Below the pieces are notes generated by a model. It saw nothing but the letters and a program-made list of their open reading frames with translations. It was not told the origin of the DNA and made no database searches. Positions 451 through 56,550 of a DNA stretch of 64,000 nucleotides are shown here, one piece after another (within the stretch, counting starts at the first letter, position 1; every line of letters starts with the position of its first letter). Where the stretch lies: assembly GCA_964016885.1 (NCBI GenBank), contig OZ024741.1, positions 204,290,001 through 204,354,000 on the forward strand, written 5' to 3'. A program made the translations under genes and the position numbers. The DNA is from Eledone cirrhosa. Taxonomy: Eukaryota.

Positions 451-834
451 AAATTAATAAAAATAATGAATAAAAACAAAGAAAACAGTTCCTTATATTA
501 AAAAATTCATCATTTTACGATCGTTTCTAGGATATATATGTGTGTGTTGGTATGTATATCATATAGATCTATGTAAAGGTTTTACAAACTATCAGAGGGA
601 ATATACATACCTACACATATATATGCTGTCTTCAGAAATAATTATTTCTCAAGACAGCATATATATGTGTAGGTATGTATATTCCCTCTGATAGTTTGTA
701 AAATCTTTACATAGATCTATATGATATACATACCAACACACACATATATATCCTAGAAACGATCGTAAAATGATGAATTTTTTTAATATAAGGAACTGTT
801 TTCTTTGTTTTTATTCATTATTTTTATTAATTTA
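451..834. repeat. ~190-bp-arm near-perfect palindrome of a PLE pLTR-like repeat
   Basis: 451-640 is the reverse complement of 641-834, centred on GAAATAATTATTTC. A single-copy relative lies at ~10075-10280. Confidence 0.9.
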
Positions 835-967
835 TCTTGACTCTGTTTTCCTGTGTTTTTCATCGAAAAAATGTTGAATATAACTTCTCTTTTCATGATA
901 TTTGGATTACATTGAGTTCTTCATACGGATTGGACACTACCGTATATTTTTGGTAGATTTATCTACA

Positions 968-1067
968 TATATATATATATATATATATATATATATATAT
1001 ATATATATATATATATATATATATATATATATATATATATATATATATATATATATATATATATATA
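968..1067. repeat. (TA)n microsatellite, representative of many such tracts
   Basis: Direct reading. Similar tracts near 4857, 17010, 19370, 20240, 24150, 26557, 31740, 33001, 38677 and 43825. Confidence 0.95.
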
Positions 1068-1700
1068 AGTATGTATACGTACATACATATATGTATACAG
1101 ACGTACAGTAGTATGTATATATATATACATACATGCACACATATATATATGTACATATGGATTCACCGAACATTTATTATAATGCTCGGTTTGTTTGTAA
1201 ACAAACATCCCGAATTAAGCCGTACAGTGTCTAGCAACCATCGTTGCTCATTTGTTCAACACTGACAAATGAACGCTGTACTAGTTTCAAGTTTATTAGC
1301 TATCGTCAGCAACGTATACCTTCCTGCCAGATGATTGAACGTCTGAAAGTATATACTTTCCTTATGCATATTAACGGCATATATATATATCACTTCGCAT
1401 ATGTTTCTCATATATATCTCCTATCTCATTTTTCATATGTATCTCCTATCTCATTTTACATCTATGTATTTTATGTATTTTTGTATTTTTTGTGTATGTT
1501 ATACCTTGCATTTTTTGTTTTGTTCCATGTGATAGAGATATTAACTATGTATTCGCCTAACTACTACGCTTCATACTGTAATTTACCCTCCGTTCTACTA
1601 TACGGTACTATCGTTCAATATGTAGATAATATATCTGTAACATTGATCCCACTTTCAAAACTTCTTACTATAACTTAAACATCTCCCTATTTATTAGTTA

Positions 1701-2107
1701 CTAGCAGATTTACCCGGCGTTGCTCGGAGTTTGAAATTGTGCTAAGAATATACAGCTAGGAAGTAAAAGAACATTATTTGTCCCCAACCTGTCAAAGTAA
1801 GCAGAAGTCTTCAATAATTAATTCAAACGAATATATTTGGTGAAAAGGTTATGTCCCTTTTTTATAAGGATTGTCAATAAAGTTTGTTATCTCCCTTACA
1901 TCAATTTTTCTACCGATAATTTTGATATCGATTTTTTATTGCTCAACGTGGGTCAATTTGAAAAATGTTTGTGATGTGACAATCTTAGCGACCTGTGCAA
2001 CGTGCACAGAAAATTTGGTCAAATTCAGTTGGTAATTGTGAAAGCCTTATGCATGCAAAGTTGTACACAGACACACACACACATCCTCGCTTTTATATAT
2101 ATAAAGA
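1701..2107 (-). mobile_element. Non-autonomous Helitron (~407 bp)
   Basis: Minus strand starts TCTTTATATATATAAAAGCG and ends CCGAGCAACGCCGGGTAAATCTGCTAG (hairpin plus CTAG). Inserted between A and T. The 3' end matches the Helitron ending at 43824. Confidence 0.85.
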
Positions 2108-2199
2108 TTATATGTACATATATTTTTTACTTCAATCTAGATTCTAACTTGTAATTTTTTTGATTTTTGATTTTTGATTTTTGATTTTTAATTTTTAGT

Positions 2200-52690: not shown

Positions 52691-53085
52691 TTGTAGACCT
52701 CGAAAAGGCATACGACCGCGTTCCAACTTGCATTCGATAGGTTTGATGCCGAGTGTTGCATGACTGGAATGAAAATCAGAAAATCAGTGCTATGAAAACT
52801 GAAACACTCGTCTTCTCAAGGAGTGAACTCTACATGTGAATGACGTTCCACTGGAGCAGGTGGATATGAGTAATGGAAGGCAGGAGGCTGAATTAAGTGC
52901 ACGAATTGCAGGAGCTGGTGCAGTAGTGAACCAACTTCTGCATTCGGTAATTGAAAAAAGGGAAGTAGGTATAAAAGCCAAACTCACCATCTTCAATTGG
53001 GTATTCGTGCTAACCCTTACCTATGGTCATGATTCTTGGGTAATGACCGAAAAAATACGATCGCGAATACAAGCGGCCGAAATAG
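52690..53085 (+). mobile_element. RTE LINE RT fragment
   Basis: CFVDLEKAYDRVP and LTYGHDSWVMTEKIRSRIQAAE. Confidence 0.8.
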
Positions 53086-53699
53086 GAAACTCTTTTTCAA
53101 GAACAAGGGGTGCAATTTCAAAACAATATTCGATTGCTAGGGGCTAGAATCTTTTAATCATGCATGTGTGTAGTATAAGTTAATGTGTGTGTGTGTGTGA
53201 CTTGAGTTGTAAGCTATTTGTTTCCTCTTAAAAACTGTCAAGTTTGTTACAATACGGAAAGGTAGTTTGCCCTTAAAAAACCAAGGGAGATAATTCTCAC
53301 TAGGAAATATTTTTTCTTCTCTTACAGAGTGGAGATTGTTCAGTGATAATGTGATTTTGTAAGGCTTAAACCTCTTTTTAAAAACTATTCTAATACTATC
53401 TTAAATTTTTTTACGCCAAATGAAGGTTGTTTAGTCAAGTTTAGATATAATTATTATGCATGTTAAGTGGTGTATAAGGTGTTTTGTAAACACATTTCAT
53501 ATAGCTGCCTAAAAAAAATTTAAAAAAACAAATTGCGTGTTAACTAGTGCGTAATGTAATTTTGTAAAACTTGTACATCTTTTCTTTTTTTTTAAATAAC
53601 TGAACCCCGAAACCTAAAGGTTTGGTGTTGTATAGTTATGGAAATGTATTCATGAGGCTGGTTGGTAAATGTGAAGATATGTGCTAACATGGATTGTAT

Positions 53700-56220
53700 T
53701 TAGAGATTTTTAAAGATCAATGTTGGAAATTGAAGATTTGGTCATGCCTGGAGATTAATAGGTCCTTTCTAATTATGATTCAAGCAGTTCTAGCAAGCAA
53801 AGTTCACATTCTCGTTGTTTGTGCTAATATGGTCTGGCCGATTGTATAATTGATTCCAGATAAATGCCATTGACTCACATAAGTTTGGGTTCTTAAATGA
53901 GTGTGTATGCACATTTAGCTGGGGGTTGAAGAAATTTCAGGTAGTCTTCACATATTTATACATACCTAGGTTTGTAGTAATTCTACATTGATATATGATA
54001 TTCTTATATAGGCATTTTCCTATTAAAGAAGATTTATCAGGTTGTCTACAGTTATAGTTTTTCCATGTGTGCTGATTGAGGTTTGGTCCTGTTTGAGTAT
54101 TTGGAGTGGTAGTGGAATTAGTAATGGGTTAAATAAGATTGACTTGTTTTTTAAGTTTGTTGTTTGGGTCTGCATATCAGTTTTTTTCTTTGATTTTTTG
54201 TGGGTTTTTTTCGTGTTTTTTTTTTGGGGGGGGGGGGAAATGATGACATTCTCTATGTTGGTGCCATCCATCCATTACAAGTTTTGAGTTTTTTTATGTT
54301 GTAAGTAAAGAGACATTTAAGGTTTAAATTAGTTATAAAATGTTGGAGGTTCATGGTAATTGTAGAATAGCTGATGGTTCTCCTGTTCAACATTTGATGG
54401 TATCTATGGGAAGGAAGGTTTTATCTATTATTTTAAAGAAAAGAAGAGAGATTTTAGTTTTCACCTGAATATTATGTAAAGGGTTATACCAGAGATATGA
54501 TTTAGAGCAGGATTTTGGTACGGCATTGGTTAGGGATTTTGTTTATCATCAGTGGTTACAGTATTTATATGATTCTGTACGGTCAGCATTCCTTTGTTGT
54601 TTGTGTTGGTATGAGTTTGAATGGTTTCCAGGGTGATTCTGCATCTGGTACATATTTCATTGTAATATTAAATCCAGCCATTTGGAGCGCATTATAGTTG
54701 CCTGCGACTGGTTCAGTCGATACGGCTGGTTATAGTCGATACGGCTGGTTTAAATGCTAAAGGGTTAAACATTATAACATACTCTCACAAGTCCATATTA
54801 AAATTTTTCATGAATGAAATTACTTGATATTGTTTTAGTACAACCAATGACATTTTTACAATATAAAAACATATAATGAAAACTAATTCACACAAAACAT
54901 AAACAATCCTCATTTTCCTACAACAGCTGATATGTTTTATCTAAGAATCAAGGACTACAGAAATAACTTTAAAAATGAGACACATAATGTCTCTTGTGTG
55001 TTGAGAAGGAAGATATCAGTGCAAATGACGAGAGAGAAGATTAGAAAGACACAAACAAAAGGCTGTTAACAGAATCCTACTGAAATCACTGATATTCACA
55101 AGGTTTCAGAATAAAATAAGAATTAAGAGACTAAGTCCATTGAATTTTAACATGCTTAACCCTTTAGCAATTAAACCAGCCGTATCTAACCAGAATTCTG
55201 TTCAAACTGGCTGTAACTGGCCACTCATACTACATTAAGGTATAGTTCCCAAAATAAATATCAAAATCTCATAGATTCAATATTATGTGAGGTAAAGCCT
55301 TTGCCTTGAAAATATAATACTAAATATAGAGTAATGTAAATACTAAAGGGCTAAAGGTAGTTTGAGTTGTGGAGAGACTGGAGATCCTGAGATATTCCTT
55401 TTATAATAGAGTTAATAATGGCCCGAAGGTGGTTAGAGTTTGTTAACACATGTAAGGTTTTCATTAGTTTTATGGAAGGGTTTGAATAGACCGGAATTTA
55501 GTTGGCAACCTTATAATTGTGCCCAAAGGTAATTTTTAAGTGTATGTGCTTAAAGAAGGATTGAATTGCCTTTGTTCTACATTCGAGCTGTTGCTCATTG
55601 AAATTATTGACCAGTAGAAGAGTGTCGTCTCTATAAATTCCACCATGAAGATCCGTAAATTCTAAATTAAGCTTATGCAATAGATAAATTTCAACTTTGT
55701 CTGTAACCGGGGCTGAATCACTGGATCCTATAGTTATTTTGAAGTTACTGATCCTATTCTTACATGTCCAGTATTCATTTTAGAATTTAATTACCGAATA
55801 TCTAGGGGCTAGCACTATTTTGGCTTCTTCCCTAGTTAAATCAGAGTTCTGCATTGTGAATATAAGGGCCTTATTGAGGAGATCGGGAGGAATGGATAAT
55901 AATCATCAATGTTGAACTGGATAAATTTTGATATAGATTTGTCATCTATCCTAGTAAACCAGTTGATTACCTCATTGGTTCTGTCCCAGAGTTTAATTAG
56001 CTGATTTACTGCTCTATTTAATGTGTTTGCTTATATCTCCTATGTCAGATTTAGAATGGCAGATAAGTTTAATCATTGGGTTAGTTTCAAAGTCATTTTT
56101 ATGATCATTTAGGTTAAATATAGGTTGTCTAGGTTCAAACGATTCTGTAGTCTGCTACTCCTAATCTATTTACTATCGCTAGCCCTTCATATCCTTAATG
56201 ATTGACTTTTCAGTATTCAA
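53700..56220 (-). mobile_element. Old, fragmented PLE (RT to GIY-YIG)
   Basis: RT motif GIYRDDTLL (55498-55680), LWYNPL (~54485), NCRQPDK..GKCLYKNIIYQCRI (~54000) and CELCLLE (~53800). Confidence 0.7.
55157..55353. mobile_element. TTAA-flanked MITE (piggyBac-like)
   Basis: TTAACCCTTTAGCA...TACTAAAGGGCTAA inverted termini. An orphan end lies at ~54742-54767. Confidence 0.65.
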
Positions 56221-56349
56221 TAAATGAATCATTGAATATCAGCAAATGTGCCTTGTTCATCTATTAACCTCGCTCGCTCTCTCTCTCTCTCTCTGTTTAT
56301 TTATTAGTCTTCACATTTACTATTATCATATATATATATACATGTATAT

Positions 56350-56550
56350 TTCAAGGAGACAACAAACAGAGGCACAAAAAGTTAGTTTCATGCTTTATAT
56401 TGGAAAGAGGAAAGAAAGTTTGATGTGTCGGGCTTAAACCCTTCTTCAGGAGTACAAATAGAGACAGGATCACAATGGAGAAACAGAAAGAATGTCCAGT
56501 AAAGACACACAAAAAAAAAAACGAAAATGAAGAGGAGAAAAATAAGAAAG
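56350..56550 (-). mobile_element. pLTR remnant related to 47500-47620
   Basis: Minus strand CTGAAGAAGGGTTTAAGCCCGACAC (GAAA mutated). Confidence 0.6.

What the first reader, a model, noticed from the sequence alone, without database searches (positions are those of the whole stretch)
451..56550. Many hammerhead-bearing short repeat families in (TA)n: a candidate cephalopod non-autonomous PLE/retrozyme system
Seen: CTGANGA...GAAA cores at 7868, 10079, 13743(-), 20507(-), 21848, 22150(-), 26425, 27060 and 47505. Degenerate ones lie at 2656, 16945, 17261(-), 24100(-), 51094, 52619 and 56425(-). They fall in at least six mutually dissimilar families, mostly non-coding, 200-630 bp long and bounded by (TA)n. 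Several have a palindromic stem III (CAATTG, CGATCG, AGATCT, CAGAGCTCTG, CCATGG, ACCGGT). Known: PLE pLTRs carry minimal type I hammerheads whose palindromic stem III allows dimer cleavage, and metazoan non-LTR retrozymes are hammerhead-bearing tandem repeats thought to be mobilised by PLEs. Inference: some families here amplify as non-coding ribozyme retroelements. I cannot tell whether they are already described.
Basis: partly seen in the sequence, partly recalled or inferred. Interest (0 to 1): 0.75.

Follow-up and report, generated by a model that had tools for sequence, protein, structure and literature searches.

The report
Penelope tails plus hammerhead retrozymes
This stretch holds a mix of broken tail ends of ordinary Penelope-type jumping genes and five non-coding, head-to-tail repeat families that carry a predicted self-cutting RNA and are likely copied by the same Penelope enzymes; both are known kinds of element.

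Summary
The hammerheads are real: 6 strict type I folds against 0.17 in shuffles, and all 10 families searched in the genome fold as type I. The 16 reported sites are a mixture. Six (families A, C, D, H, Q) are 3' ends of 5'-truncated autonomous Penelope-like elements (PLEs), running upstream into endonuclease/RT sequence with staggered breakpoints; two more probably are. Family B (two sites) is non-coding without loop-back; one site is unresolved; 52619 is not a hammerhead. Coding and non-coding families share one footprint: two fixed 3' ends downstream of the ribozyme, (TA)n flanks, scattered 5' ends, inverted 5' arms. This points to copying by PLE enzymes in trans (inferred). Cleavage, expression and circles are untested; no autonomous partner was identified. 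Retrozymes and PLE hammerheads are published, and this scan reported similar retrozymes before in this and other genomes. Verdict: new members of known kinds.

The parts
449..946 (.). Family D, autonomous PLE 3' end as an inverted pair (449-642 minus, 641-946 plus); upstream hammerhead box incomplete
1060..1378 (-).
1395..2783 (+). Family L, non-coding 1376-nt head-to-tail unit (partial copy split by an insertion at about 1704-2106), core at 2657, long poorly paired helix II
6902..7939 (+). Family C, autonomous PLE 3' end: inverted endonuclease arm 6902-7289 (minus) joined to sense 3' end 7288-7939, core at 7872
10013..10279 (+). Family D, PLE 3' UTR end, core at 10087, 107-nt helix II region
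13557..13860 (-). A2, diverged relative of family A, broken core at 13778; not searched in the genome
15733..17016 (+). Family H, autonomous PLE 3' end: inverted endonuclease arm (about 15733-16100, minus) plus 3' UTR 16101-17016; variant core (U4A in the family) at 16947
17087..17408 (-). Family I, one full 319-nt non-coding unit; family core is the U3-A8 variant, the window copy has a private change at 17294
19146..19200 (+). Unreported hammerhead-like fold, core with one mismatch at 19154, palindromic helix III; family not followed
20297..20800 (-). Family A, 3' end of autonomous RT + GIY-YIG PLE, core at 20546
21616..22043 (+). Family A copy, core at 21852, helix II damaged
22134..22445 (-). 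Family B, non-coding element from its 5' microsatellite boundary to the first 3' end, core at 22185
23673..23810 (+). Family I fragment without the core
23816..24148 (-). Family J, non-coding 665-nt head-to-tail unit; window copy is cut 5' and lacks the CTGANGA box
26298..26561 (+). Family B copy with tail, intact core at 26425
26748..27317 (+). Family E, 570 bp = more than one 508-nt non-coding unit, intact core at 27068
43899..44030 (-). Unreported hammerhead fold, core at 44003, resembles family L; ends at (TA)n; family not followed
45640..47621 (+). F: GIY-YIG remnant, long low-complexity UTR, minimal hammerhead at 47509 with helix I lost, (TA)n; likely one PLE 3' end (local inference)
50164..51291 (+). 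Family Q, autonomous PLE 3' end: inverted endonuclease/UTR arm 50164-50979 (minus) plus sense end 50979-51291, U3-A8 core at 51099
56345..56545 (-). G: degenerate F-like minimal hammerhead at 56449; autonomy unresolved

Best explanation
The window holds 3' ends of several 5'-truncated autonomous Penelope-like elements together with five non-coding head-to-tail families (319-1376 nt) that carry a predicted type I hammerhead and are likely copied in trans by Penelope-type RT/endonuclease. Shown: family anatomy, loop-back, two fixed 3' ends, (TA)n flanks, inverted 5' arms. Inferred: the PLE endonuclease nicks a (TA)n tract; RT starts at one of two fixed sites 15-400 nt downstream of the ribozyme cleavage site, probably helped by TA-like letters there, reads through the ribozyme and stops at scattered points; a second priming at the other site gives the inverted arm. 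For the non-coding families the template must be continuous across the cleavage site and longer than one unit; a re-ligated circular monomer is the likelier form (about 0.55), an uncleaved multimer transcript the alternative.
For: Same-strand PLE protein match upstream: A 21 of 30 loci, C 16 of 20, Q 11 of 20, D 9 of 20, H 2 of 20, against B 0 of 25, E 0 of 25, L 0 of 20, I 2 of 25, J 2 of 20 (the four I/J cases lie over 1 kb off, outside the unit). Long copies show RT and GIY-YIG frames. Contiguous more-than-unit copies: I 20 of 25, E 12 of 25, L 9 of 45, J 4 of 20; M trimer at 430-nt spacing. Longest ATG ORF 30-87 aa, no PLE protein match in monomers. Two fixed 3' ends in unselected flank copies of both classes: A 160/235, Q 23/103, H 29/132, M 219/276, B about 17/98, I 142/170; in searched copies E 190/260-267, L 56-64/139. 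This matches the PLE tail made by two RT start sites (PMC11167929) and the inverted 5' arm (PMC8557442 Fig. 2 legend). Stems differ between families yet pair (cross-family helix I mean 0.74 pairs, 4 of 90 reach 4); family E has two compensated pairs, 96.6% of cells paired, 0 of 500 shuffles as high.
Against: No nucleotide likeness between any non-coding monomer and the autonomous ends or long loci beyond microsatellite and one adjacent E insertion, so no partner is identified. Family B never loops back (0 of 34 tails). Tandem units are clearly more alike within a locus than between loci in only 3 of 11 cases. 5' ends do not cluster at the cleavage site, so the DNA shows no trace of cleavage. 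Li et al. saw cleavage in 1 of 9 Xenopus retrozyme dimers and the Anolis PLE does not need cleavage in vitro. Top hits are selected by likeness to the query, and some loci overlap, so counts are not independent. Only 2 compensated pairs in E, each possibly one event.
Confidence: 0.78

Rival explanations
1. Every family is only the 3' end of a 5'-truncated autonomous PLE; loop-backs are pLTR tandems whose ORF was not sampled.
For: True for A, C, D, H, Q; only 20-45 loci per family were read.
Against: In I, E, J, L, M the upstream sequence runs into the family's own 3' tail with no room for an ORF, up to 2-3 units; no coding match in monomers.
Confidence: 0.07
2. The non-coding families spread by PLE enzymes from linear read-through transcripts of tandem source loci; the hammerhead is a passenger or a protein-binding fold and no circle is involved.
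For: All copies read through the cleavage site; several cores are variants (U3-A8, U4A, U-U at the base of helix II); PAc inserts from uncleaved RNA.
Against: Cores and stems are kept across unrelated families, with compensation in E; circular folds are more stable than shuffles (I z -6.8, E z -4.0); coral, mussel and axolotl retrozymes form circles (PMC7229834).
Confidence: 0.35
3. The non-coding families are moved by a LINE or by DNA-level satellite processes rather than by PLEs.
For: LINE remnants whose ends also sit in TA tracts occur in the window; no PLE partner found.
Against: Two fixed internal 3' ends plus inverted arms are shared with the local autonomous PLEs; copies are dispersed on many chromosomes at about 1-1.5 units.
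Confidence: 0.08

Closest known systems
Metazoan non-LTR retrozymes (Cervera and de la Pena 2020, PMC7229834; Li, Clavereau and Pollet 2026, bioRxiv 10.64898/2026.07.22.740005)
   Same: Non-coding, low-GC (0.34-0.37) head-to-tail units with one type I hammerhead; monomers, dimers and multimers; co-occur with PLEs.
   Different: Mostly dispersed 1-1.5-unit insertions in (TA)n with PLE-type tails and inverted arms; L (1376 nt) exceeds the reported 51-972 bp; no pLTR homologue found, whereas 21 of 57-family Xenopus matches were PLE termini; RNA and cleavage untested.
PLE pseudo-LTR hammerheads (Cervera and de la Pena 2014, PMC4209133)
   Same: Type I, small or palindromic helix III, extra base before helix II, U3-A8 variant, most motifs single and from truncated PLEs.
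   Different: Several families have a stable helix III (B, E, H, Q), 46-107-nt helix II regions (D, J, L, Q), U-U instead of G10.1-C11.1 (B, C, H, M) or U4A (H).
PAc Poseidon PLE mechanism (Frangieh et al. 2024, PMC11167929)
   Same: Two RT start sites downstream of the hammerhead, AT-rich targets, read-through of the ribozyme.
   Different: Tails here are about 26-125 nt rather than 30-40; start sites carry TA-like letters, whereas PAc starts at a site not homologous to the target.
Non-autonomous Chlamys PLEs such as MRC1 (Craig et al. 2021, PMC8557442)
   Same: Non-coding PLE dependants with pLTRs and head-to-tail insertions, microsatellite bias.
   Different: Those resemble their autonomous partners at the 3' end and mostly lack canonical hammerheads.

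Membership tests
EN+ PLE (A, C, D, H, Q) | RT plus C-terminal GIY-YIG ORF upstream of the hammerhead end | tested here: met
   frames are broken, RT seen for A, C, D, endonuclease for all five
EN+ PLE (A, C, D, H, Q) | Staggered 5' truncation, optional tail, inverted 5' arm | tested here: met
EN+ PLE (A, C, D, H, Q) | Clade placement by RT phylogeny | not tested
   Neptune-like for C, D, H, Q and Poseidon-like for F are recalled resemblances only
Non-LTR retrozyme (I, E, J, L, M) | Type I hammerhead in each unit | tested here: met
   I 18 of 25, E 9 of 25, J 15 of 20, L 14 of 20 copies keep core boxes and helices I and III; M; helix II of L is weak
Non-LTR retrozyme (I, E, J, L, M) | Non-coding, low GC, head-to-tail units | tested here: met
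Non-LTR retrozyme (I, E, J, L, M) | [quoted passage not shown] 'active' criterion) | tested here: inconclusive
   Two or three hammerhead sites in tandem in L082, L094 (E), L236 (L), L290 (M); completeness not scored for all; not shown for I or J; no window copy meets it
Non-LTR retrozyme (I, E, J, L, M) | Self-cleavage and circular RNA | not testable with these tools
   needs bench work or RNA reads
Non-LTR retrozyme (I, E, J, L, M) | Homology to a PLE pLTR | tested here: not met
   compared only with five local autonomous families; reported for under half of Xenopus families, so not defining
Non-LTR retrozyme (B) | Head-to-tail units | tested here: not met
   0 of 34 tails followed by the 5' start; all 30 5'-end hits start in TA/TG microsatellite or an inverted arm. 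Works like a non-autonomous PLE; not filed as retrozyme
Hammerhead (52619 site) | CTGANGA core in the family | tested here: not met

The most novel reading that the evidence does not exclude
This genome hosts a community of independent circular ribozyme RNAs (319-1376 nt, unrelated to each other and to the resident PLE ends) that all hijack PLE RT/endonuclease through their own pair of internal start sites, using active hammerhead variants (U3-A8, U-U helix II base, very long helix II): viroid-like satellites of Penelope elements, more diverse than their helpers' own ends.
Probability: 0.3. Interest if true: 0.75.

Novelty: new member of a known kind. Interest (0 to 1): 0.5.

Why it matters
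PLEs are proposed but not shown to mobilise animal retrozymes (PMC7229834; Li et al. 2026). Here coding and non-coding families sit side by side with the same insertion footprint and base-level RT start sites, which makes the claim testable with the existing in vitro PLE assay. It also shows that a hammerhead in (TA)n cannot be called a retrozyme from one window: half are truncated PLEs. Retrozymes were not found in print for cephalopods in four searches, but the taxon was not tested here.

Tried and rejected
No RNA holder listed for family I; contigs of runs X1 and X4 (kind unknown) cover it, show no joints and say nothing on expression. Rfam finds no hammerhead at the gathering score. First descriptor had a fixed helix II register and missed real sites; replaced. 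52619 rejected; 8156, 44471 and 49915 (inside LINE/LTR remnants by my reading) not accepted as hammerheads. B loop-back sought and not found. Cleavage-site clustering of 5' ends sought and not found. Partner search among five autonomous families negative. L286 was fetched on the wrong side and not used. Sequence look-ups in earlier findings for M and I gave nothing. Lunse et al. (PLE hammerhead dimers) is not held; whether it covers the U-U or long-helix variants is open. F, G, A2, 19154, 44003 and 18948 were compared only with the 280 fetched loci.
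Full report
Setting. The window is G000:C2:204290001-204354000 in a 3.0-Gb genome. It is mostly repeats (Tc1-like, LINE RT, Helitron-like helicase, LTR integrase, PLE endonuclease remnants) with a TFIIF-alpha exon at 58160-58459. The taxon was not tested.

Observation. Ten of the 16 sites have an exact CTGANGA box. A type I descriptor gives 6 hits against 0.17 in 30 shuffles (tuned after seeing the sites). 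Individual window copies are often damaged, so I searched the genome with ten families (12 searches; 759-3021 first-look candidates each, 40 scored, 20-30 loci fetched; candidates are not copy numbers). All ten have a type I fold in their commonest form: copies keeping core boxes and helices I and III were A 22 of 30, B 21 of 25, I 18 of 25, E 9 of 25, C 14 of 20, L 14 of 20, Q 19 of 20, J 15 of 20, H 16 of 20, D 17 of 20. Helix I strands swapped between families pair in 4 of 90 cases (own pairing was a search criterion). In 21 of the 25 E loci aligned (four with gaps or insertions left out), 96.6% of cells pair and two pairs are compensated; slid controls give 24-44%. I and Q carry the U3-A8 core, a variant described for Schistosoma PLEs. 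52619 fails.

Autonomous families. A, C, D, H, Q extend upstream with staggered ends (shared upstream length from under 25 to 1500 bp or more; H to 978) into PLE endonuclease and, in long copies, RT frames (Pfam GIY-YIG E 1.3e-5 and weak RVT_1 E 0.003 for L017). A few of the upstream matches counted may be neighbouring insertions. In the window C, H and Q still carry an inverted endonuclease arm. A2 (13778) is a 68-75% relative of A-like copies; F (47509) lies 1.5 kb downstream of a GIY-YIG remnant on the same strand; neither was searched genome-wide. This is the case described in PMC4209133: most motifs are single and come from truncated PLEs.

Non-coding families. In I, E, J and L the sequence upstream of the hammerhead runs into the family's own 3' tail. 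Natural monomers are 319, 508, 665 and 1376 nt, GC 0.34-0.37, longest ATG ORF 30-87 aa. Contiguous more-than-unit copies: 20 of 25, 12 of 25, 4 of 20, 9 of 45; both orientations in 17, 12, 6, 15 loci (window copies and a few overlapping loci included). M (1309, missed) forms a trimer of 431 nt. The window's I copy is one unit and its E copy 1.1 units. B is a non-coding element of about 600 bp with an internal 190-bp duplication, starts in TA/TG microsatellite, shares nothing further upstream and never loops back.

Shared footprint. Counting from the predicted cleavage site, 3' ends followed by TA fall at two sites per family, also in copies met by chance in other families' flanks, which were not selected for this (A 21, Q 51, H 20, M 20, B 11 ends; few for I, E, L, C; none for J; D unclear). 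5' ends scatter and most copies read through the cleavage site. The template has TA-like letters at most of these sites (second sites of A, C, H were not readable). PMC11167929 explains the PLE tail by two internal RT start sites; PMC8557442 describes inverted 5' arms and microsatellite bias. I infer that PLE proteins copy the non-coding families. Against or open: no partner by sequence, no sign of cleavage in the DNA, and intra-locus units exceed every inter-locus identity in 3 of 11 cases (L236 97.9 vs max 91.2; L290 98.7 vs 90.1; L082 96.0 vs 94.8). Circular folds of I and E beat 40 doublet shuffles (z -6.8, -4.0), partly due to the ribozyme stems.

Tally of the 16 sites: 6 autonomous PLE ends shown, 2 likely, 4 non-coding head-to-tail, 2 non-coding without loop-back, 1 unresolved, 1 rejected.

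Literature seen: bioRxiv 10.64898/2026.07.22.740005 parts 1-3 of 5 (supplements not seen, they may list related families); PMC4209133 parts 1-2 of 4; PMC11167929 parts 1-2 of 4; passages of PMC8557442, PMC7229834, PMC6765202. Lunse et al. not seen. Searches for cephalopod retrozymes or non-autonomous Penelope hammerhead elements returned no such paper (open-access library only). Repbase and Dfam were not available. PLE clade names for these families are recalled, not tested. Earlier notes of this scan describe 359-533-nt retrozymes with PLE ends in this and other genomes (unchecked); M may be the same as or a sister of their 422-nt family.

Verdict. Real, partly as interpreted; new members of two known kinds, with a useful shared footprint. 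Interest 0.5.

Noticed in passing
families B, C, H, M (window 26425, 7872, 16947, 1309): Four unrelated families have U opposite U at the base of helix II instead of the usual G10.1-C11.1 pair; H also has A at core position 4.
   Followed up: partly
window 4985-5125, 11007-11103; Q-type and B copies often end 5' at 30-47 nt before the cleavage site, inside the ribozyme, and turn into an inverted arm, giving short MITE-like palindromes; possibly RT switching at helix II.
   Followed up: partly
window 24223-24509, 24696-25134, 47632-47779: Another TA-bounded repeat family with a CTGATGA box near its 3' end and internal subrepeats, but no following GAAA box seen; nature unknown.
   Followed up: no
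window 1-454, 22584-23644, 25128-25919, 32998-33820: High-copy LINE-type 3' end (zinc-finger ORF remnant at 22784-23644) also ending in TA tracts; not hammerhead-bearing.
   Followed up: no
window 19430-19710: Near-perfect inverted repeat of about 100 bp around a (TA)n tract; may be two arms of another PLE-type end.
   Followed up: no
L281:2529-3553: A more-than-unit E copy with inverted arm abuts the 5' side of a long family C RT frame in opposite orientation; chance nesting or template switch.
   Followed up: no
window 20792-20943: A 22-copy 7-bp tandem at the 5' junction of the family A copy, derived from the element's own sequence; likely RT slippage.
   Followed up: no
window 62354-63999: 18-bp tandem array of over 90 copies with long open frames in several phases.
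   Followed up: no
window 58160-58459: Exon encoding the C-terminal part of TFIIF-alpha (Pfam E 1.2e-19).
   Followed up: no
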